Source: Minisyncoccota bacterium (GTDB lineage: Bacteria; Patescibacteriota; Minisyncoccia; Phycocordibacterales; JABAAK01). Taken from it: a stretch of DNA of 43,818 bases. A model generated the notes under the pieces. It did no database searches, was not told the origin of the DNA, and worked only from the letters and a program-made list of their open reading frames with translations. Where the stretch lies: positions 187,475 to 231,292 of the forward strand of contig OZ241963.1 in the NCBI GenBank assembly GCA_965204115.1, in the 5' to 3' direction. The stretch's first letter is position 1. The number at the start of each line of letters is the position of its first letter. The position numbers and the translations under genes were made by a program. This document shows positions 6,472 through 17,808 of this stretch, piece by piece.

Positions 6472-6546
6472 GGCCCTATCGTCTAGCGGCTAGGACGCTG
6501 CCCTCTCACGGCAGAAACCGGGGTTCGATTCCCCGTAGGGTCACCA
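6472..6546 (+). tRNA. tRNA-Glu (anticodon CTC), CCA encoded
   Basis: Manual cloverleaf: acceptor GGCCCTA/TAGGGTC, anticodon arm CTGCC-CTCTCAC-GGCAG, T arm CGGGG-TTCGATT-CCCCG, 3' ACCA. Confidence 0.9.
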
Positions 6547-6983
6547 AGGTTTAAAGGCGGAGTCTGTGAGGACAGTGGGTTTTCCTTTGCGCCGTCGTCA
6601 CCATGGCATTGCTTTGTCAAGTTTCCACATCTTTGATGCTGTAATTGCGTATACGACGATAGTGCCATTATTTTTTTCGCCATAATGAATCTGCGCATCG
6701 TAAGATGTGCGGTGCTTAAGAAGTACTTTTTATTCGTTAAATATTTTCTTATGAATATATTACTAACAAATTTGAAGTGTTCCATTTGGGAGGTTAAACT
6801 TTTAAGCTGATGATCTGGCAAGGAAGTGCGGCTGATAGTCTTGGGCATAACAATCAATTTATTCACAGACTTATCACAGTGTGCAAGAGTGGCTTGACTG
6901 TCGATCAAGTCTCTACGGAAATACACCGATCATGGTGAACTTGAAGTAGTGCAACACCGCTTCCAAAGTGAATATCTAATGGC

Positions 6984-7009
6984 AAAAAAGAGGTTGACAC
7001 CTCTTTTTT
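6984..7009. terminator. bidirectional hairpin terminator
   Basis: AAAAAAGAGGT-TGAC-ACCTCTTTTTT. Confidence 0.55.
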
Positions 7010-7432
7010 GTTTGTATCGTCCTCTCCTGTTGGTTTGCTATTCCTCGTACTGTTACTCTACTGCGAGAGGGCAGGCATTCTCCGCTCACGCAATCTGGTG
7101 AAGTTTGTGTAAACGGCAGATTTCCTTATGATGTTACTCTATAATTGCCACATCATTTGACAATTGAGACCGTATAAAGATAATTAGAAAAATCTTAAAT
7201 ATATTTATAGCATAAAAATTTTTAATTTATATAAAAAAATCTTATTTTACAGTATATTTTATAATAAAAAATTATAAGTCAAAAAATATGCTAATCTGTA
7301 AATAAAGTATAAATTTATATTTTGTGTAAATTAATTAGTTTTTGTCTTTATTTTACAATTTTTAATAAAATATAGGAAATGATATAAAAAATAATTATTT
7401 TTTTTTGGTAAAGTTTTTTACATATGATGATG

Positions 7433-7460
7433 TTGACAAAATACATTCCTCATGTATACT
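7433..7460 (+). promoter_or_regulatory. sigma70-like promoter TTGACA-N16-TATACT at the head of the 4-gene operon
   Basis: TTGACA is at 7433-7438 and TATACT at 7455-7460. The -10 box overlaps the tracked ATG at 7452, so either the promoter call or that start is wrong. Confidence 0.35.
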
Positions 7461-7880
7461 GTTTTTATAACCCGAGCAAATACAATTAACGATCTGTTCG
7501 CTGAGCCGAAGGAACTGCTTGATTCTATCGTGCCTGCTCTAAAAAGCAAGGTCTCCATTGACCAAAAAACGCTTGAGCCCGCCTTATCGTCGGCTGATGT
7601 GATAAAAGAGAAAACTCGCATTAAAGCACTCTGGTATCTGCTGGCGAAGAAGGCGGTTGAGTTATCGCCTGAAGCGGCAAAGGGTGATCAAATTGGAATG
7701 TCAGCAATAAAACTTGCTGATGCTCTTCGTTTAACGAAAGGACAGAGTGATGGGGCCGTGAATACACTCAAACGAGAGGGGGTAATTACGGTTTTTACTA
7801 AGAGGGGGAAAGAGGTCTTGTATCATATACCAGATCATATGGTAGAAACTGCAATCAAAATCGTGCAAGAAAAAAAGTAG
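7452..7880 (+). CDS. hypothetical small protein with C-terminal winged-helix-like domain (paralog A)
   Basis: 142 aa. The C-terminus MSAIKLADALRLTKGQSDGAVNTLKREGVITVFTKRGKEVLYHIP reads as helix-turn-helix plus a beta-hairpin wing. First gene of a tightly packed co-directional operon. Confidence 0.6.
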   Translation: MYTVFITRANTINDLFAEPKELLDSIVPALKSKVSIDQKTLEPALSSADVIKEKTRIKALWYLLAKKAVELSPEAAKGDQIGMSAIKLADALRLTKGQSDGAVNTLKREGVITVFTKRGKEVLYHIPDHMVETAIKIVQEKK

Positions 7881-7889
7881 GTAATTATT

Positions 7890-8306
7890 ATGGAAGAATA
7901 TATAACAAAAAAAGAATTTACAGCCCTTGAAAAGAGAGTAAAAAAAATAGAGAGGGCGTTTGGTGCTGATGCAAACACGGGCACTAAGAAAGTAAGGCGT
8001 GTGGAATCATCGTCTGAGTTTTTAAGAAAAAAAGATCTGAAAACTGCTATGGACGCTGTTATTTGTATTGTGTATTTTATTGAAAACGGAAGTGATGAGG
8101 ATGTTGGGGTTACATCTAGTGATATAGAGCAGGGGCTTAGAAAAGCGCGACAAATTGTTCCTAAAAATATATCAGACTGCCTTGCCAAGTGTGCGAAAAA
8201 AGGTCTTATCCAAGAGAGTGGTGACGATAAGAGGGAGGGTAAAAAAGTTTGGGTACTGACGAATACTGGGATTGAATATGTCGAAAACCTTGATAAAGAA
8301 GAATAA
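7890..8306 (+). CDS. hypothetical small protein with C-terminal winged-helix-like domain (paralog B)
   Basis: 138 aa, 9 nt after gene A. N-terminal charged helix and Ser/Lys-rich linker, then AVICIVYFIENGSDEDVGVTSSDIEQGL...KKGLIQESGDDKREGKKVWVLTNTG. Confidence 0.65.
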   Translation: MEEYITKKEFTALEKRVKKIERAFGADANTGTKKVRRVESSSEFLRKKDLKTAMDAVICIVYFIENGSDEDVGVTSSDIEQGLRKARQIVPKNISDCLAKCAKKGLIQESGDDKREGKKVWVLTNTGIEYVENLDKEE

Positions 8307-8312
8307 ATACTT

Positions 8313-8780
8313 ATGAATGACAAACAGTTTAAAATCATAGTTGACTTATTGAAGGAGATACGCGATGCCCTGAAAAAGTCTGAGTCTGCTGCTACTTCTG
8401 TAAAAAATAGTTCAAAGAAGAGGAACGCCTTCCCAGCAGTGCCATGGGAAACATACATAAAAAATAAACAACCGAAAAATGATTATGAGGTCGTTGCAGT
8501 TGTGGTTGATTATCTTACAAAAACAGGAAAAGAGGTTACGATAGAAAGTATTATTGAGTTTATTCGTGAAAGTTCGGTTGCGTTCTCAAATGTAAGAGAT
8601 CCCGAGAAGGTTGTGAACAATACGAAAAATAATAAACACTATGGTTATATTGAATTTGTCGATAAGAAAAAAAGAAAGCATTATCGACTAAGCATTAAAG
8701 GGTCTCAGTTTATAAATATATTGCAAGAAAAAAAATTATCTCCCGCTAATGAAATCTATGATGGCAAAAAGAAAAAGTAA
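8313..8780 (+). CDS. hypothetical small protein with C-terminal winged-helix-like domain (paralog C)
   Basis: 155 aa, 6 nt after gene B, with the same layout as B: VVAVVVDYLTKTGKEVTIESIIEFI...GYIEFVDKKKRKHYRLSIKG. Confidence 0.65.
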   Translation: MNDKQFKIIVDLLKEIRDALKKSESAATSVKNSSKKRNAFPAVPWETYIKNKQPKNDYEVVAVVVDYLTKTGKEVTIESIIEFIRESSVAFSNVRDPEKVVNNTKNNKHYGYIEFVDKKKRKHYRLSIKGSQFINILQEKKLSPANEIYDGKKKK

Positions 8781-9507
8781 TAAGAGCATTTTTTCAGCAA
8801 ACATTCCACAAGGCTTGGAGCAGGCACTAATTGCTGAGTATAAAAAAGTTATTGTCAGATATAAGAGCGGTGATTTTGAGCATCACGAAACATCTGTGGG
8901 AAAATTTTGTGAAGTGGTGTTACGCATTCTTGAATACAATCTAAGAGAAACTTTTACCCCCATTGGTGATCGCATCTCCAACACTGGAAAAATCATCAAT
9001 GAGACCATAAACAGTAAGAGTATTGATGGGTCAGTAAGAAAGAGACTTGCGCCACTGATTAAAATATTGCTTGGATTTCGTAACGAAAGAGATGCTGCGC
9101 ATGTTGGTGGAGTTGACTTGGAATCCATTGACACCAATTTTACTTTCTATGCAACTAGGTGGATATATGCTGAGTTAGTAAGAATATATGGCGACATGGC
9201 AGTGAAAGAAATACAAAAAGAGGTAGACACGGCCGCGGAGATTGCTTTTCCTGATTTGCTCAAAGTTGGTAACAAGACGGTCATTGTTAATCCAAACTTG
9301 ACGTCGGGAAAGGAAATATTACTGTCTCTCAGAGATGGGGAGAAATCTTTTGAAGAGTTATTTGAAATGAACAAAGAGCAGAATAAAGCGCGCTTTAAAA
9401 GAAAATTGAGTGATATGGAAAAACAAAAGCTTATTTATCTTAAAGAAAACCAGAGGTACCACTTGCTGCCCGCAGGAAGGTCAGAAAATGTGAAGTTCAT
9501 TAAATAG
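8749..9507 (+). CDS. HEPN-like (Rx4-6H) protein with C-terminal winged-helix-like domain
   Basis: 252 aa, overlapping gene C by up to 32 nt. All-helical N-terminal region contains LLGFRNERDAAHVGG, an RN...AH signature like HEPN families. The C-terminus is KSFEELFEMNKEQNKARFKRKLSDMEKQKLIYLKENQRYHLLPAG. Confidence 0.55.
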   Translation: MKSMMAKRKSNKSIFSANIPQGLEQALIAEYKKVIVRYKSGDFEHHETSVGKFCEVVLRILEYNLRETFTPIGDRISNTGKIINETINSKSIDGSVRKRLAPLIKILLGFRNERDAAHVGGVDLESIDTNFTFYATRWIYAELVRIYGDMAVKEIQKEVDTAAEIAFPDLLKVGNKTVIVNPNLTSGKEILLSLRDGEKSFEELFEMNKEQNKARFKRKLSDMEKQKLIYLKENQRYHLLPAGRSENVKFIK

Positions 9508-9547: not shown

Positions 9548-9733
9548 TTAAAACTCTTCATAATTTTCACTTATCACCTCACTTAAATCCTCGGTGATGG
9601 TGTCCAGCCCTTCTTCCACCTCTTTGTTTCCGTTGCCCAACTGCACTTTTATCAAAAGTGTCATCGCTTGATCCAGCAAGTGCTTCTCATCTTTTATGGT
9701 TAATTCTTTCATATTCTTATTATAAAACATCAT
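9548..9733 (-). CDS. 61-aa acidic hypothetical protein translationally coupled to the DpnI-like gene
   Basis: Its ATG overlaps the upstream stop (ATGA at 9730-9733). The sequence is rich in D/E (EEGLDTITEDLSEVISENYEEF). Confidence 0.45.
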   Translation of the reverse strand: MMFYNKNMKELTIKDEKHLLDQAMTLLIKVQLGNGNKEVEEGLDTITEDLSEVISENYEEF

Positions 9734-10509
9734 TTCACTCTGTACCTGCCTTTGTTGTTTATGAAAGTTAGATACCCTTTGTCTCGCAAAAATTGTAGCT
9801 GCTGTCTAATTTTTTGCTTAATGTGCATATTCTCAGTATGTTTTTTGCTCAAATCATTTTCAAAGGTGTATATATCCTCCAAGGCAAATTCTTTCTTATT
9901 CAACTCGTCTATACATTTCATAATGTCCAGTGTCCACCCCCTCAGATTTGTTGCATGAGTTTTTCTCAAAAATAGGGTTTTTTGCCAATTTTTTAAAACG
10001 CTCTTTCTGGTTTCAATTGAGCCATTTTTGATATAAAAGATTCTTCCGTCATTCGGAACACTATTTAGTAGAATGTTACAGCCAACCCACCCTGCCCTTC
10101 TTGCACTCTGTGGCAAAGGTTTTCTTTTTTTAATAACATCCGGAACAAAGAAATGCTTTGGAATGACTATAAAATTTTTCACTGAGTGGTTTTTTGGGTC
10201 ATATCTCAAGAAAAAGAAATTTGGATTACTGTCACTCTTCAGCCGATTAATCATTGTTTTATACGCTCCGTCTACAACTTGATTACCGATACTGTCTTTC
10301 TTGCTCTTCAATTCATATTCCTCATTGCAGTTTTTACAATAAAAATCAGCAGCTGGTCTGTTGTTTTCAAATTTTTCTAAAGCATCCTTCCCGCAGTTTG
10401 GGCAAAAAACTTCCCTGTCAACCCAGTGCTCAGATAAAAATCTAACCTTCTGTGTCTTACTTTTATATCTACTCATCTCTTTTGCCCGAGTGTCAAAAAA
10501 TATTTGCAT
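9730..10509 (-). CDS. DpnI-family methyl-directed type IIM restriction endonuclease
   Basis: Near-colinear with my recollection of S. pneumoniae DpnI. Shared segments include FCPNCG...FENNRPAADFYCKNCNEEYELKSKK (Cys4 plus D...ExK), NPNFFFL, RKPLPQSARRAGWVGCNI, and the C-terminal winged helix HIKQKIRQQLQFLRDKGYL...KGRYRV. Confidence 0.9.
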   Translation of the reverse strand: MQIFFDTRAKEMSRYKSKTQKVRFLSEHWVDREVFCPNCGKDALEKFENNRPAADFYCKNCNEEYELKSKKDSIGNQVVDGAYKTMINRLKSDSNPNFFFLRYDPKNHSVKNFIVIPKHFFVPDVIKKRKPLPQSARRAGWVGCNILLNSVPNDGRIFYIKNGSIETRKSVLKNWQKTLFLRKTHATNLRGWTLDIMKCIDELNKKEFALEDIYTFENDLSKKHTENMHIKQKIRQQLQFLRDKGYLTFINNKGRYRVK

Positions 10510-10560
10510 ACGGTTTTACATCTTTCAAGAATACCCTAATATCTTTCATTGCTATTAGTA

Positions 10561-10566
10561 TATACT
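10561..10566 (+). promoter_or_regulatory. candidate -10 box (TTAGTATATACT) for the RT leader transcript
   Basis: Same TATA(TA)CT motif as other promoters here. It lies about 470 nt upstream of the RT ATG. Confidence 0.35.
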
Positions 10567-10572
10567 GCAAAA

Positions 10573-11025
10573 CAGGTGCTACGCATGCCATGCACGACTC
10601 TTAAAATTTTCAATAGAATTCACTCGCAAACAGTCGCACCGGAAAAACCACTTGCATTTTAAAAGGAGCCATGTGATAATGCAGGCGTGGGTGTGTGCAT
10701 TCACGCATACACCCCGCCGTCAGTGGTTGCTATTTAACCCTCGGGCGCTTAGTGGTCACAGCTCTGTCGGATACAACAGGAGTTACACTCCCGCCAGTAG
10801 ACGACATCTACGAGTACATCTCGGTGATGGTTAATACAATGTGCTCCGCAAGAGCACATACCACTCGCTGGTGTTATGCTATAATGCGTATGATGAAAAG
10901 ACTGCTACGGAATATCATAGTGCCGTGGCAATTACACCAGCGAAGCTGGGTGAGTGGATTACAATGAGTACTGCTCAGCAAACGGTTCGACTCCGTTTCC
11001 ACCCTCAAACTCACTTTTTATTATT
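10573..11025 (+). ncRNA. candidate structured ncRNA/leader upstream of the reverse transcriptase
   Basis: GC-rich non-coding block inside an AT-rich island. Hairpins: 10684-10718 (GGCG-GGGTGT-TGC / GCA-ACACCC-CGCC), 10839-10859 (ATGTGCTC-CGCAA-GAGCACAT), CACCAGC-GAA-GCTGG(G)TG, and a tRNA-like T arm at 10981-10997. The closing helix GTGAGT/ACTCAC is followed by TTTTTATTATT. Confidence 0.45.
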
Positions 11026-11035
11026 CCAAATCAGC

Positions 11036-12244
11036 ATGACTAGTATTGACCTAACGCAAATCATAACAGAACAAGAATTAGAAAATGCGCGGAAGAAGCT
11101 CTTTGGGCATGAAGCACGAAGAAAAAAACCGCAAAAAAATATACACCACCCGCCGGCAGGAAGAGGTGTGCGCAATAAATTTCACGAAGAAAATATTAAT
11201 ACAGGCGAAATATACCAACAACGATGTGCTGACTTCAAATTCAAGCCCTACACAGGAACCGCTATTGAGAAGCCGAGTGGGGGCTATAGACCATTGCTTG
11301 TACCACATAACGAGGACAGAATCATACTCAAGGCAATATTCCCACATATCAGAGGCATCATTCTGCGAAAACACTCACACGAAGCTGAAATGCTCGGCGT
11401 CGGCAAAAAGTTTTCCAGAAAAAACATCGGCAATATAGTAAGCGATATTGCATGGATGACCTGCCAGGACGGATACCGATACATTATGAAAATAGACTTT
11501 TCCAGTTTTTTCTCAACAATAGATAGAAAACATCTACTGAGTATTCTGCGTGAAAAATACTTCAACCCTAACGATCTGATAGAGCTAATCCTGCTAAACC
11601 TTATTAAGGTATCTCTTTATAACGAAATACAAGAAGAAGGAGGCCCAGGGTCGTTTTTCTTAGGCGACATAGCGAGCATGAACCTGAAAGAAGTGGGTAT
11701 TCCACAAGGGCTTCCGTATTCCCCATTATTGGCAAACATCTACACACTTGGAGTTGACCAAGCCATCAACAGTATAGACGGTTGTAGAGTAATCCGGTAT
11801 ATTGATGATATGATAATCGTCTCAAAGACGAAAAAGTGTCAACACGACGCTTTTAACTTACTACGACAGATGGCTAAGAGAAAAGGGCTAAGGTTAAACG
11901 AAGAGAAAACAAAAACTTATAACATCAACAGCTCGAAGCACAGTCATATTAATTTTCTGGGTATCAATATAAGGAGTGACGGCACAAAAACTCTCCCGAC
12001 AGAAAAAAAGGGAAAAATCAGAGGGTGGCTACAAAAAATTAATGACAGCTCTCACCATCTTGCAAAATACACCAACCACCCACACTACAAAGAATCAGAG
12101 CATTATAAATCTTGCAGTGTGCAGGACATTGTTAAAAAGAAGATGCGGAATTCAATTGACGGAGTCAGAAGGCATTACAAATCAAACTGTATACAGGGGG
12201 TTGATGAATTCATTGAAAGAGTGGAAAAACAATACTCGCTCTGA
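11036..12244 (+). CDS. reverse transcriptase (group-II-intron-like / defence-associated 'unknown group' type), no fused effector domain
   Basis: RT motifs are IEKPSGGYRPLLVPHNEDRIILKAI (1-2), YIMKIDFSSFFSTID (3), GIPQGLPYSPLLANIY (4), VIRYIDDMIIVS (5, YxDD), GLRLNEEKTK (6) and INFLGINI (7). The start is placed at the ATG at 11036; the tracked GTG at 10841 lies inside a hairpin of the leader. Confidence 0.9.
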   Translation: MTSIDLTQIITEQELENARKKLFGHEARRKKPQKNIHHPPAGRGVRNKFHEENINTGEIYQQRCADFKFKPYTGTAIEKPSGGYRPLLVPHNEDRIILKAIFPHIRGIILRKHSHEAEMLGVGKKFSRKNIGNIVSDIAWMTCQDGYRYIMKIDFSSFFSTIDRKHLLSILREKYFNPNDLIELILLNLIKVSLYNEIQEEGGPGSFFLGDIASMNLKEVGIPQGLPYSPLLANIYTLGVDQAINSIDGCRVIRYIDDMIIVSKTKKCQHDAFNLLRQMAKRKGLRLNEEKTKTYNINSSKHSHINFLGINIRSDGTKTLPTEKKGKIRGWLQKINDSSHHLAKYTNHPHYKESEHYKSCSVQDIVKKKMRNSIDGVRRHYKSNCIQGVDEFIERVEKQYSL

Positions 12245-16186: not shown

Positions 16187-17131
16187 ATGTTTATGGAAAC
16201 AGTAATATCATCTAGAAATAAGACCTTGCGTTTGAGTGAAAATGATATGGATTTTTTGGATAAATATGTAATCACTATTAATAGAAAAACGCAATTGGAT
16301 GAAATAGAGAATAAAATCTTACATCAGGATGTTTTTGAGACACTTGATCTCTTGCCTGATAATTTTATTGATCTTGTATTTGCAGATCCACCATATAATA
16401 TAGATAAAAGGTTTAATGAGGTTGTTTTTAAGAAAATGAATATACAATCATATGAGGAATATACGGATCAATGGATGTCTAGATTAAAGAACAAACTAAC
16501 TAAAGATGCATCACTGTATATATGTGGTGATTGGCGTTCAAGTGCTGTTTTATATCACGTTTTGAATAAATACTTTACTATAAAAAATAGAATAACTTTT
16601 GAACGAGAAAAAGGGAGAGGTGCAAAGACAAATTATAAAAACTGCTCTGAAGACATATTCTTTTGTGTTAATTCTAATAATTATACATTTAATGTTGATA
16701 CAGTAAAGCTAAGAAAAAAAGTTATTGCTCCATATAAGGAAAATGGAAAACCAAAAGACTGGGAAATTGGTTTTGGCGGTGTTGGTTATAGAGATACTTA
16801 CCCTTCAAATCTTTGGACAGATATAACTATTCCATTTTGGTCTATGAAAGAAAACACGGAACATCCCACACAGAAACCAGAGAAATTACTAGCAAAAATC
16901 ATTTTGGCGAGTTCAAACAAAGATGATGTGGTGTTTGACCCATTCCTTGGTTCAGGCACCACTTCTGTTGTTGCCTCAAAATTAGGAAGAAGGCATGTTG
17001 GTATTGAGGTTGATAAGAAATATTGTCTTATCTCTCAAAAAAGATTACAAGAAGCGGAAAAAGATGATAGCATACAGGGATACATTGATGGTATTTTTTG
17101 GGAAAGAAACGCATTCAATAAATCTATATGA
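16187..17131 (+). CDS. beta-class N6-adenine/N4-cytosine DNA methyltransferase
   Basis: Motif IV DLVFADPPYN precedes motif I VVFDPFLGSGTTSVVA. This permuted order is typical of the beta class (N6_N4_Mtase family). Confidence 0.85.
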   Translation: MFMETVISSRNKTLRLSENDMDFLDKYVITINRKTQLDEIENKILHQDVFETLDLLPDNFIDLVFADPPYNIDKRFNEVVFKKMNIQSYEEYTDQWMSRLKNKLTKDASLYICGDWRSSAVLYHVLNKYFTIKNRITFEREKGRGAKTNYKNCSEDIFFCVNSNNYTFNVDTVKLRKKVIAPYKENGKPKDWEIGFGGVGYRDTYPSNLWTDITIPFWSMKENTEHPTQKPEKLLAKIILASSNKDDVVFDPFLGSGTTSVVASKLGRRHVGIEVDKKYCLISQKRLQEAEKDDSIQGYIDGIFWERNAFNKSI

Positions 17132-17808
17132 CAAAAAATATCTTTTCTAGAAAATTACATACAAAGATTGAAAAAAGGGTAAAAGAGCTTTTAATTTCTC
17201 AGCCGGATTTTTTATCTGAACAAACACTACAAAGTCCACGAGCGGTTGGCGATGCTATACAGAATATATTAGAAAAAGATTTTCAAGAAATAATCAGTGA
17301 TTTATTGCAAAATAATTCTCGTGTTAAAGAATATTCGGCATCATTTGCAAGGAGAGCAATGGCCGATATTGCCTTTTATGATGAGGATGAAAACTATTAT
17401 ATTGTTGATGTCAAAACACATAGGCTGGATACTAAATTTAATATGCCTAATCTCACATCTGTTGAGCGGTTGAGCAGGTTTTATGAAGATGATAAGAATA
17501 ATTTTGTCATATTAAAGATTGACTATGAGATTCAAAATAATAATTTAGAGATCAAAAGAGTGTTATTTAAGTTGATAGAATATTTTTCTTGGGAATGCTT
17601 GACACTTGGAGCATTAGGCTGGGGGCAAATACAAATAGCAAATTCAAACATAATTAAGATTGCAGAAAACCAATTACGAAGAGAATGGATGTTGGAAATG
17701 TGCAATAACTTACTTGAATTTTATCCAAAAGAAATAGAAAAAATCAACGTAAGAATTGAACACTTTAAGAAAGTGAGAAAGTTTTGGGAAAACAAAAAAT
17801 GCCTATGA
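17128..17808 (+). CDS. putative type II restriction endonuclease (PD-(D/E)xK-like)
   Basis: ATGA overlap with the MTase stop. Candidate catalytic core is ADIAFYDEDENYYIVDVKTH (D...D-V-K). Confidence 0.55.
   Translation: MTKNIFSRKLHTKIEKRVKELLISQPDFLSEQTLQSPRAVGDAIQNILEKDFQEIISDLLQNNSRVKEYSASFARRAMADIAFYDEDENYYIVDVKTHRLDTKFNMPNLTSVERLSRFYEDDKNNFVILKIDYEIQNNNLEIKRVLFKLIEYFSWECLTLGALGWGQIQIANSNIIKIAENQLRREWMLEMCNNLLEFYPKEIEKINVRIEHFKKVRKFWENKKCL

What the first reader, a model, noticed from the sequence alone, without database searches (positions are those of the whole stretch)
7433..9507. Candidate novel system: operon of three paralogous small winged-helix proteins followed by a HEPN-like/winged-helix protein
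Four co-directional ORFs of 142, 138, 155 and 252 aa are packed with 9-nt and 6-nt gaps and a 20-32-nt overlap.

- **A, B and C share one layout:** an N-terminal charged helix and a low-complexity linker. A hydrophobic helix follows (ALWYLLAKKAV / AVICIVYFIENG / VVAVVVDYLTKTG), then an HTH (MSAIKLADAL / VTSSDIEQGL / VTIESIIEFI). A basic beta-hairpin wing closes the domain (KRGKEVLYHIP / REGKKVWVLTNTG / KKKRKHYRLSIKG). They therefore look like a triplicated paralog.
- **D differs at the N-terminus:** it has an all-helical domain carrying FRNERDAAH, which fits the HEPN Rx4-6H RNase signature (RN..AH as in several HEPN families). It ends in the same kind of wHTH (KQKLIYLKENQRYHLLPAG).
- **Why it looks new:** HEPN toxins normally pair with MNT or a single antitoxin. 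I do not recognise a HEPN-wHTH effector preceded by three sensor- or regulator-like wHTH paralogs as any described TA or defence system. It sits back-to-back with DpnI-like and RT genes in an island, which is a typical defence neighbourhood.
Basis: inference. Interest (0 to 1): 0.8.

Follow-up and report, generated by a model that had tools for sequence, protein, structure and literature searches.

The report
Unannotated HEPN-like toxin cassette with winged-helix partners
The four genes are real and belong to an unnamed but widespread two-gene cassette, a probable RNA-cutting HEPN "toxin" fused to a DNA-binding domain plus a small winged-helix partner, which this tiny-genome bacterium has expanded to four genes inside a defence island; function is still inferred.

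Summary
The four co-directional ORFs exist as described: A 7452-7880, B 7890-8306, C 8313-8780, D 8749-9507. All have conserved homologs.

The conserved unit is not the four-gene operon. It is a two-gene cassette: a ~175-aa partner ("U") translationally coupled to a ~255-aa D protein. It occurs in many phyla (1,330 D clusters at 50% identity) and is annotated only as hypothetical.

- **B and C:** diverged duplicates of U (HMM 8e-13 and 5e-9; hhalign B vs C 88%).
- **A:** a separate, rare family seen only in CPR bacteria, not a detectable paralog.
- **D, C-terminus:** a confident winged helix.
- **D, N-terminus:** an all-helical domain with invariant E55, R111, R114, H118, D128, W138, E142 and R145.
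  - RNERDAAH has the same spacing as the validated Abi_C/SadR RNase motif RNEYGDAH.
  - Pfam Abi_C hits recur but stay below threshold.
  - The best Foldseek superpositions are HEPN domains, none individually significant.

Best reading (about 0.5): a toxin–antitoxin-like or abortive-infection module, with D as a HEPN RNase held in check by its winged-helix partners. The nearby RT and DpnI genes are island neighbours, not components. I rate it a new variant of a known kind, of moderate interest.

The parts
7130..7451 (+). Very AT-rich leader (GC ~0.20) upstream of A; presumed promoter/operator region of the operon
   Evidence: GC is 0.19-0.21. Two 11/12 sigma-70-like matches lie at 7157-7184 and 7433-7460, but the total count is no higher than in shuffled sequence. 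Assigning a promoter here is inference only.
7452..7880 (+). Gene A (142 aa): rare CPR-only accessory protein with a probable C-terminal winged helix; not detectably related to B or C
   Evidence: - Homologs: P0174 at 73% identity, two copies in L012 at 45%, and weak matches in L071 and L014.
- hhalign against B, C and U gives 4% or less.
- Winged-helix hints are weak: ArsR/SdpR E~0.03 at residues 83-138, and TrmB 4e-4 in the L071 homolog.
- A is absent from the B-C-D loci L001-L003 and L097.
7890..8306 (+). Gene B (138 aa): paralog 1 of the universal D partner 'U'; N-terminal helix, linker, C-terminal winged-helix-like domain
   Evidence: - A profile of non-CPR U proteins hits B at 7.8e-13.
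- hhalign B vs U gives 98.7% and B vs C gives 87.8%.
- B orthologs precede C-D in L001, L002, L003, L097 and L094/L096.
- Weak Pfam MarR_2 hit, E=0.009, at residues 62-116.
8313..8780 (+). Gene C (155 aa): paralog 2 of the U partner, immediately upstream of D and overlapping it
   Evidence: - The U profile hits C at 5.1e-9, and hhalign C vs U gives 96.9%.
- C orthologs lie directly upstream of D in every CPR locus examined.
8749..9243 (+). Gene D, N-terminal domain (residues 1-165): all-helical, HEPN-like (Abi_C-type); predicted RNase effector
   Evidence: - AF2 pLDDT is 81-84, with six helices.
- E55, R111, R114, H118, D128, W138, E142 and R145 are invariant in 83 sequences.
- Weak Pfam Abi_C hits occur in 14 of 83 members, and the family consensus aligns to Abi_C over the motif region.
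- The highest-probability Foldseek hits are HEPN domains: 3o10, 1ufb, 1wol, 3c18, 2hsb, the HepT toxins and AbiV.
9079..9102 (+). Putative catalytic motif R111-N-E-R-D-A-A-H118 (Rx6H with Asn after the Arg)
   Evidence: Translation confirmed. R111, R114 and H118 are invariant and N112 is conserved in more than 90% of sequences. The spacing is the same as in the S. aureus SadR motif RNEYGDAH, where R225A, N226A and H232A each abolish RNase activity and defence (PMC13590631).
9244..9507 (+). Gene D, C-terminal winged helix-turn-helix domain (residues 166-252) and stop codon
   Evidence: The AF2 topology is a beta-hairpin, three helices and a wing, with pLDDT above 90. Foldseek gives probability 0.97-1.0 to the wHTH regulators YodB, HxlR, MarR and DtxR, with target TM-scores around 0.6.

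Best explanation
The locus is a lineage-specific, expanded version of a widespread, unannotated two-gene cassette. I read that cassette as a toxin-antitoxin-like or abortive-infection module.

- **D is the effector.** It has an N-terminal HEPN-like domain of the Abi_C/AbiJ type. Its invariant R111/N112/H118 motif, probably assembled at a dimer interface, would cleave RNA. A C-terminal winged helix is fused to it.
- **U is the partner.** This small upstream protein is present here as two diverged paralogs, B and C. It is co-translated with D and is proposed to bind D and keep the RNase inactive. It may also repress the operon through its own winged helix, until infection or stress removes or displaces it.
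- **A is an extra component.** It is a winged-helix protein found only in CPR bacteria and may act as an additional regulator or adaptor.

**Shown:** gene structure; conservation and tight coupling of U-D; B/C paralogy; the wHTH of D; the invariant motif.

**Inferred:** the HEPN fold, RNase activity, toxicity, neutralisation by B/C, any defence role, and the trigger.
For: **The cassette is conserved and tightly coupled**
- The D family has 1,330 representatives at E<=1e-3, nearly all 245-270 aa. It occurs in at least 192 GTDB species across many phyla.
- 73 of 80 loci have an adjacent upstream gene on the same strand. 68 of these are U-like by HMM and 3 more by hhalign.
- The median U-D gap is 0 nt, the commonest case is a 4-nt overlap, and 61 of 68 gaps fall within -40 to +20 nt.
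- No other neighbour recurs in more than 8 of 80 loci, so the cassette is self-contained.

**B and C are U**
- HMM 7.8e-13 and 5.1e-9; hhalign 99%, 97% and 88%.

**D resembles an Abi_C-type HEPN**
- Invariant E55, R111, R114, H118, D128, W138, E142 and R145.
- Abi_C is the only Pfam family that recurs (14 of 83 members). The match falls on the motif region (D consensus 96-132 to Abi_C positions 38-76).
- The motif spacing is identical to the validated SadR motif RNEYGDAH.
- The focused Foldseek search ranks HEPN domains highest by probability and TM-score: 3o10 at 0.82/0.58, 1ufb at 0.51/0.59, 1wol at 0.44/0.58, plus the HepT toxins and AbiV.

**The partners behave like antitoxins or specificity subunits**
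- They evolve much faster than D. Between this window and L001/L003, D is 66-68% identical, B is 28% and C is 31-35%. Mean column identity is 38% for the D family and 15% for U.
- There is a precedent for a WH protein neutralising a HEPN toxin: in type IX Retron-Kva2, WH alone suppresses HEPN toxicity by occluding the active site.

**Context**
- The CPR loci sit among R-M, GmrSD, Mrr, AAA_15, Schlafen/AlbA_2, SocA, DpnI and RT genes.
Against: - No Foldseek match to a HEPN structure is significant (all E>0.8), and generic four-helix bundles appear in the same list.
- The Abi_C match is below Pfam's threshold (14.7 bits against 24; best single-member E is 0.0033).
- Profile searches of PDB sequences found no HEPN protein.
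- The motif loop is the least confident part of the model (pLDDT below 50 at residues 115-122).
- In the wider family, the immediate neighbours are a mix of housekeeping and mobile or defence genes, so it is not consistently in defence islands.
- The cassette is essentially absent from sequenced plasmids, phages and IMG/VR, which is unusual for classic type II TA modules.
- A, B and C also occur without D in L012, as A-B-C-X and as A-C. They are therefore not simply dedicated D antitoxins.
- No toxicity, binding or RNase data exist.
Confidence: 0.5

Rival explanations
1. Sensor-activated effector complex rather than toxin-antitoxin. The winged-helix proteins (U; here A, B and C) would act as sensor or specificity subunits. 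They would recognise foreign nucleic acid or a phage protein and then switch on D's nuclease. Multiple paralogs would broaden recognition, and different effectors could be plugged in.
For: - U copy number varies from one to three across phyla.
- The partners evolve fast.
- In L012 the A-B-C set is followed by a different fourth protein, X. It has a wHTH-like N-terminus and a VPA1262_N-like C-terminal domain at 3.6e-8. A-C also occurs alone. This pattern suggests a reusable adaptor set with exchangeable effectors.
- D carries its own wHTH, which shows borderline similarity to the U/B domain (hhalign 49-64%). That is compatible with a hetero-oligomer that binds nucleic acid.
Against: - The gene order (small DNA-binding protein first, overlapping the enzyme gene) and the 4-nt overlaps are the classic antitoxin-toxin layout.
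- The only experimental precedent for a WH-HEPN pair shows WH acting as an inhibitor.
- X has no established function.
- The alternative arrangements come from a single locus, L012.
Confidence: 0.2
2. Non-conflict function. The cassette would encode a DNA- or RNA-binding regulatory or RNA-processing complex. The HEPN-like domain would be non-toxic: a ligand- or nucleotide-binding module, or a site-specific processing RNase, as in MtlR-type or other housekeeping HEPN proteins.
For: - Many flanking genes in the wider family are housekeeping: EF-G/LepA, NadA, GroEL and a tRNA synthetase.
- The family is absent from plasmids and phages.
- All components carry winged helices typical of transcription factors.
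- HEPN-fold proteins with regulatory roles exist, for example MtlR as listed in PMC3710099.
Against: - Distribution is patchy and cassette-like, in variable contexts with no conserved metabolic neighbour.
- The CPR copies sit in low-GC defence islands.
- Strict invariance of the R/N/H motif argues for catalysis.
- The rapid divergence of the partners is typical of conflict systems.
Confidence: 0.15
3. Retron-like or RT-linked system. By analogy with type IX retrons (HEPN + WH + ncRNA + RT), A-D would work together with the downstream RT (10841-12244) and a structured RNA upstream of it.
For: - An RT lies 1.3 kb downstream of D on the same strand.
- The 450 nt upstream of the RT fold with z=-4.4.
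- Type IX retrons pair a HEPN toxin with a WH protein.
Against: - Two opposite-strand genes, the 61-aa ORF and DpnI-like, separate D from the RT.
- No RT recurs near D in the 80 loci or in the other CPR loci.
- The RT scores best as UG17 or group-II-like, not as a retron RT.
- D and U match no PADLOC retron-effector model.
- The Kva2 HEPN lacks the canonical motif that D has.
Confidence: 0.03

Closest known systems
AbiJ / SadR (Abi_C-domain HEPN RNases; Pfam PF14355)
   Same: - The putative catalytic motif has the same composition and spacing: RNERDAAH here, RNEYGDAH in SadR, where R, N and H are essential for RNase activity and defence.
- Abi_C is the only Pfam family that recurs among D relatives, and it aligns over the motif.
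- AbiJ solo proteins are often found beside R-M systems (PMC3710099), as the CPR copies are here.
   Different: - The match is below Pfam's threshold.
- In AbiJ and SadR the HEPN domain is C-terminal, behind AbiJ-NTD or Sdh5 domains, and the protein acts alone.
- In D it is N-terminal, followed by a wHTH, and it always comes with one to three upstream winged-helix partner genes.
- R114, D128, W138, E142 and R145 are additional invariant residues specific to the D family.
HepT-MntA (HEPN-MNT) toxin-antitoxin systems
   Same: A two-gene, tightly coupled cassette with a small HEPN RNase toxin. HepT structures are among the Foldseek hits (6m6u, 8xeh, 8xdj, 8yuf).
   Different: The partner is not a nucleotidyltransferase, since A, B, C and U show no NTase signal. 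Neutralisation by AMPylation is therefore not expected. D also carries a fused wHTH that HepT lacks.
Type IX retron (Retron-Kva2) HEPN + WH effectors
   Same: A HEPN RNase is paired with a winged-helix protein that can neutralise it by sterically blocking the active site (bioRxiv 10.64898/2026.07.14.738597). This is the best mechanistic analogy for U (B/C) acting on D.
   Different: - That system needs an RT and msDNA, its gene order is HEPN then WH, and its HEPN lacks Rx4-6H.
- Here the order is WH partner(s) then HEPN-wHTH, and the motif is canonical.
- No RT or ncRNA is conserved with the cassette.
- There is no sequence similarity to the PADLOC models.
Generic type II toxin-antitoxin operons
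   Same: A small DNA-binding protein gene comes first and overlaps the enzyme gene by about 4 nt. Distribution is patchy and cassette-like, and the first gene evolves faster.
   Different: - The cassette is almost absent from plasmids and phages.
- The toxin carries its own wHTH.
- The partner is duplicated or triplicated in some lineages, and an extra component (A) is present in CPR bacteria.

Membership tests
HEPN superfamily (D N-terminal domain) | Conserved Rx4-6H motif with a polar residue (N/H/D) directly after the Arg | tested here: met
   R111-N112-x5-H118 is an Rx6H motif. R111 and H118 are invariant and N112 is conserved in more than 90% of 83 relatives from many phyla.
HEPN superfamily (D N-terminal domain) | All-alpha up-and-down helical bundle that superposes on solved HEPN domains | tested here: inconclusive
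   The AF2 model is all-helical (pLDDT 81-84). The highest-probability Foldseek hits are HEPN domains: 3o10 (prob 0.82, target TM 0.58, rmsd 5.1), 1ufb, 1wol, 3c18, 2hsb, HepT and AbiV. All E-values are above 0.8, and other four-helix bundles are interleaved in the list.
HEPN superfamily (D N-terminal domain) | Metal-independent RNase activity that depends on the R and H residues | not testable with these tools
   Needs biochemistry on wild-type D and on R111A and H118A mutants.
Abi_C / AbiJ family (Pfam PF14355) | Score at or above Pfam's gathering threshold for Abi_C | tested here: not met
   The window's D gives no Abi_C hit at E<=1. 14 of 83 relatives hit weakly, with a best E of 0.0033. 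The family consensus scores 14.7 bits against a cutoff of 24.
Abi_C / AbiJ family (Pfam PF14355) | Architecture: HEPN at the C-terminus behind an AbiJ-NTD-type domain, acting as a single gene | tested here: not met
   In D the HEPN-like domain is N-terminal with a wHTH at the C-terminus, and an upstream partner gene is nearly always present. For the AbiJ architecture see PMC3710099 and PMC13590631.
HEPN-MNT (HepT/MntA) TA | Adjacent minimal nucleotidyltransferase (MNT) antitoxin | tested here: not met
   A, B, C and 79 U-family members show no NTase family in Pfam.
Type IX retron | RT and msr/msd ncRNA in the same operon as the HEPN and WH genes, and conserved with them | tested here: not met
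   The RT is 1.3 kb away, beyond two opposite-strand genes. No RT recurs in 80 D loci or in the other CPR loci. There is no Rfam retron hit and no PADLOC hit for A-D.
Type II toxin-antitoxin module (generic) | Bicistronic, translationally coupled pair, with the DNA-binding partner upstream of the enzyme | tested here: met
   68-71 of 78 evaluable loci fit this. The median gap is 0 nt and the commonest case is a 4-nt overlap. Here C and D overlap by 20-32 nt.
Type II toxin-antitoxin module (generic) | Toxicity of the downstream protein, neutralised by the upstream protein | not testable with these tools
   Requires expression experiments.
Winged helix-turn-helix fold (A, B, C) | Recognisable wHTH domain by profile or structure | tested here: inconclusive
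   - Only sub-threshold hits were found: MarR_2 0.009 for B; ArsR/SdpR ~0.03 for A; PadR, HTH_45, F-93_WHD and Mrr_N for U members and the U consensus; TrmB 4e-4 for an A homolog.
- D's own wHTH is confident.

The most novel reading that the evidence does not exclude
A, B, C and U would form a previously unrecognised family of modular winged-helix adaptor or sensor subunits. They would assemble with interchangeable effectors: the HEPN-wHTH protein D in most genomes, and an unrelated wHTH plus VPA1262_N-like protein X in L012. Paralog number (one to three, plus A) would set recognition breadth. That would make this a new multi-subunit immune platform, widespread in bacteria and elaborated in CPR organisms, rather than a simple TA pair.
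Probability: 0.15. Interest if true: 0.75.

Novelty: new variant of a known kind. Interest (0 to 1): 0.5.

Why it matters
If the reading is right, this is an undescribed HEPN-based conflict cassette. It is present in well over a thousand sequence clusters, from Alphaproteobacteria and Actinobacteria to CPR bacteria and an archaeon, yet it is annotated only as 'hypothetical' and is invisible to Pfam, NCBIfam, PADLOC and PHROGs.

It would add a new partner type to the ways HEPN RNases are controlled: one to three winged-helix proteins instead of an MNT transferase. It would also give a foothold on immunity in CPR/Patescibacteria, whose defence repertoire is poorly known.

Homologs in cultured Bradyrhizobium, Sphingopyxis, Streptomyces, Gordonia and Halomonas make the hypothesis directly testable.

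Tried and rejected
- **Pairwise BLASTP of A, B and C** found nothing. Paralogy of B and C only emerged from a profile of the wider partner family.
- **Curated libraries.** Pfam, NCBIfam, PADLOC and PHROGs gave no significant hits for A-D.
- **PDB sequence searches** with the D and U profiles returned no HEPN or wHTH structure, only chance-level matches.
- **Full-length D Foldseek** against PDB and BFVD recognised only the wHTH. I therefore remodelled the N-domain alone and searched again.
- **A as a diverged U paralog:** rejected (hhalign 4% or less).
- **RT/retron linkage:** rejected because the RT does not co-occur with D.
- **Phage or plasmid origin:** rejected. There was one partial archaeal plasmid hit, no phage hit and no IMG/VR hit.
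- **att repeat of the tRNA-Glu 3' end** to delimit the island: none found.
- **Metagenome scans for more A or B relatives:** none found; one attempt failed for lack of a conserved stretch.
- **Identity of the alternative fourth gene X in L012:** unresolved.
- **SadR sequence for a direct comparison:** not available, since no supplement text is held.
- **Promoter scan:** not above chance.
Full report
**1. The observation**

| Gene | Coordinates | Length |
|---|---|---|
| A | 7452-7880 | 142 aa |
| B | 7890-8306 | 138 aa |
| C | 8313-8780 | 155 aa |
| D | 8749-9507 | 252 aa |

- The junctions are a 9-nt gap, a 6-nt gap, and a C/D overlap of 32 nt. The overlap is 20 nt if D starts at its third ATG (8761), where its 93%-identical homolog P0001 starts.
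- FRNERDAAH is encoded at 9076-9102.
- The genes sit in a low-GC stretch (0.34-0.42 against 0.50-0.58 in the flanks). It starts after tRNA-Glu (6472-6546) and a 320-nt leader with GC near 0.20.
- Downstream lie a convergent 61-aa ORF and a DpnI-like methyl-directed endonuclease (Pfam DpnI 3e-78; PADLOC mREase_II 9e-113). An RT follows (RVT_1 1e-27; best PADLOC model RT_UG17).
- All four ORFs have conserved homologs, so they are real genes.
- No Pfam, NCBIfam, PADLOC or PHROG model recognises any of them.

**2. What is conserved**

*The D family is large*
- The word-indexed search found only 18 D relatives.
- An exhaustive profile search found 1,330 representatives at 50% identity (883 at E<=1e-10), nearly all 245-270 aa.
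- A scan of one genome per GTDB species confirmed 192 relatives. They include Bradyrhizobium, Sphingopyxis, Devosia, Streptomyces, Gordonia, Nocardioides, Halomonas, Chloroflexota, Planctomycetota, Acidobacteriota, several CPR groups and a Woesearchaeote.
- The closest relatives are Candidatus Paceibacterota, so the window is most likely from a CPR bacterium.

*D travels with one partner gene*
- In 73 of 80 loci, D is immediately preceded by a gene on the same strand with a median length of 175 aa.
- 68 of these match one HMM and 3 more match by hhalign. In two loci D lies at a contig edge.
- The median intergenic distance is 0 nt, the commonest case is a 4-nt overlap, and 61 of 68 gaps lie within -40 to +20 nt.
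- No other neighbour recurs in more than 8 of 80 loci.
- The conserved unit is therefore a self-contained two-gene cassette, which I call U-D.

**3. What A, B and C are**

- BLASTP finds no similarity among A, B and C.
- A profile built only from non-CPR U proteins hits B at 7.8e-13 and C at 5.1e-9, over the same C-terminal ~100 residues.

| hhalign comparison | Probability | E-value |
|---|---|---|
| B vs U | 98.7% | 3.5e-15 |
| C vs U | 96.9% | 2.9e-10 |
| B vs C | 87.8% | 3.7e-7 |
| A vs B, C or U | 4% or less | not significant |

- B and C are therefore diverged duplicates of U.
- Duplicated or triplicated U genes also occur in about 10-12 of the 80 loci in other phyla, for example three copies in a Nitrobacter and an Aggregatilineales genome.
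- A is a separate, very rare family. Its members are P0174 (73% identity), two copies in L012 (45%), and weak matches in two other CPR genomes. Metagenome scans found none.
- Winged-helix signals for A, B, C and U are all below threshold but point the same way. They include MarR_2, ArsR/SdpR, PadR, HTH_45, F-93_WHD, Mrr_N and TrmB.

*Arrangements seen in CPR loci*

| Arrangement | Loci |
|---|---|
| B-C-D | L001, L002, L003, L097 |
| A-B-C-D | this window; L094+L096 (two overlapping contigs from one sample) |
| A-B-C-X (X is a different 224-aa protein) | L012 |
| A-C, separate pair | L012 |

The four-gene order does recur, but rarely. A, B and C can also occur without D.

**4. What D is**

*C-terminal domain*
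- AF2 with a 19-sequence alignment gives pLDDT 84 and pTM 0.76. The model has six helices (residues 21-163) followed by a beta-hairpin, three helices and a wing (170-251).
- Foldseek matches the C-terminal part to the wHTH regulators YodB, HxlR, MarR and DtxR at probability about 1.0.

*N-terminal domain*
- Across 83 relatives the invariant residues are E55, R111, R114, H118, D128, W138, E142 and R145, with N112 above 90%.
- Scanning all 83 members against Pfam, the only recurring family is Abi_C (PF14355). It matches 14 members, with a best E of 0.0033.
- The family consensus aligns to Abi_C over residues 96-132, which is the motif region. It scores 14.7 bits, below the cutoff of 24.
- Abi_C is the HEPN domain of AbiJ (PMC3710099).
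- In the S. aureus Abi_C protein SadR, the motif RNEYGDAH is required for RNase activity and for defence (R225A, N226A and H232A abolish both; PMC13590631). D's RNERDAAH has the same spacing and shares R, N, E, A and H.

*Focused fold search*
- A model of residues 1-165 alone (pLDDT 81) gave no significant Foldseek E-values.
- The hits with the highest probability and best superposition are HEPN domains:

| PDB entry | Protein | Prob | Target TM | RMSD |
|---|---|---|---|---|
| 3o10 | sacsin HEPN | 0.82 | 0.58 | 5.1 Å |
| 3c18 | nucleotidyltransferase-like protein | 0.75 | 0.25 | 5.0 Å |
| 1ufb | TT1696 | 0.51 | 0.59 | 4.9 Å |
| 1wol | ST0689 | 0.44 | 0.58 | 5.7 Å |

- 2hsb, three HepT toxin entries and AbiV are also listed, so about 12 of the top 50 are HEPN.
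- I take the HEPN (Abi_C-like) assignment as probable, about 0.75, but not proven.

**5. Context**

- The CPR copies lie in clear defence neighbourhoods:
  - this window: DpnI-like and RT genes;
  - L001: Dam-type methylase plus PDDEXK, Schlafen/AlbA_2, AAA_15/21, Fic and DUF3800;
  - L002: AlbA_2, AAA_15, an N6_N4 methylase, ResIII and Mrr;
  - L012: SocA and AlbA_2;
  - L096: a methylase-HNH fusion;
  - L097: EcoRI methylase and GmrSD.
- In the wider family, the nearest neighbours are mixed. Some are housekeeping genes. Others are ArdC, type I S subunits, integrases, DarT and a Dam methylase.
- The family is essentially absent from 72,556 plasmids (one partial haloarchaeal hit), from 50,697 phage genomes and from IMG/VR.
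- Sources call these proteins 'hypothetical'.

**6. Mechanism**

*Best reading (about 0.5)*
- U-D is a toxin-antitoxin-like or abortive-infection cassette.
- D is a HEPN RNase, and the co-translated winged-helix partner(s) hold it inactive and possibly repress the operon.

*Evidence for this reading*
- The gene order and overlaps fit the classic antitoxin-toxin layout.
- The only enzyme-like residues in the cassette are in D.
- The partners evolve much faster than D. D is 66-68% identical between this window and L001/L003, against 28% for B and 31-35% for C.
- There is an experimental precedent. In type IX Retron-Kva2, a WH protein alone neutralises a HEPN toxin by occluding its active site.

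*Rivals*
- The winged-helix proteins are sensors or activators with exchangeable effectors (0.2). The variable copy number and the L012 arrangements favour this.
- The cassette has a non-conflict regulatory or RNA-processing role (0.15).
- The operon is linked to the nearby RT (0.03). This is largely refuted, because no RT co-occurs with D elsewhere.

**7. Comparison with known systems, and novelty**

- D fails Pfam's Abi_C threshold and has the opposite domain order to AbiJ.
- It lacks the MNT partner of HepT-MntA.
- It lacks the RT and ncRNA of type IX retrons.
- It therefore works like a HEPN toxin system but is not a member of any described family.
- I rate it a new variant of a known kind.
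- Interest is moderate (0.5). The cassette is widespread and unannotated, with an unusual partner set that varies in copy number. However, the effector class is familiar and no function has been shown.

Noticed in passing
window 10510-10960 (+), upstream of and overlapping the start of the RT ORF at 10841-12244: This region folds far better than shuffled controls (MFE -144.6 against -120.2±5.6 kcal/mol, z=-4.4, 0 of 100 shuffles as good). There is no Rfam match. The RT is an orphan: it scores best as UG17 or group-II-like, far below the family cutoffs. A structured ncRNA may partner this RT, and the GTG start at 10841 is probably over-extended.
   Followed up: partly
window 9548-10509 (- strand): The DpnI-like methyl-directed restriction endonuclease (259 aa) is followed by a 61-aa ORF (9548-9733) that overlaps it by 4 nt. 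The small ORF has no family hit. It could be a co-translated accessory or controller protein.
   Followed up: no
window 16187-17808 (+): A second low-GC islet (GC 0.31-0.35) carries an N6_N4 DNA methylase (314 aa, 6e-42). A 226-aa ORF with no family hit overlaps it by 4 nt. This is probably a type II restriction-modification pair.
   Followed up: partly
window 6547-7016: About 440 nt between tRNA-Glu and the operon leader contain no convincing ORF. The stretch ends in a perfect 12-bp hairpin followed by a T-run (6983-7016), which looks like a terminator. No att-like repeat of the tRNA 3' end exists anywhere in the window.
   Followed up: partly
L012:1694-3648 (-) and L012:7571-8429 (+): One Paceibacterota-like contig carries A-B-C followed by a different fourth gene, X (224 aa). 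X has a wHTH-like N-terminus, and its C-terminal domain matches only NCBIfam VPA1262_N (3.6e-8), with an HxR...D...GTSxN stretch reminiscent of HKD nucleases. The same contig also carries a stand-alone A-C pair. This suggests the small proteins are reusable modules.
   Followed up: partly
L001:12610-13836, L002:6231-6776, L012:5796-7256: Schlafen/AlbA_2-domain genes, some with HATPase_c_4, lie next to or near the B-C-D or A-C modules in three independent CPR loci. This may reflect a shared island or a functional link.
   Followed up: no
L004:8950-9612 and L008:8826-9731: In two distant D subfamilies, a same-strand gene follows D: a 220-aa protein of unknown function in L004, and a DUF3825 protein in L008. 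These downstream genes are not conserved across the family.
   Followed up: partly
L093 (Natronomonas pharaonis plasmid PL131, 3941-4813): This is the only plasmid hit. It is a 290-aa haloarchaeal hypothetical protein that matches only D's N-terminal HEPN-like domain (33% identity over residues 18-143). It has no U-like gene upstream, so the domain also occurs in other architectures.
   Followed up: partly
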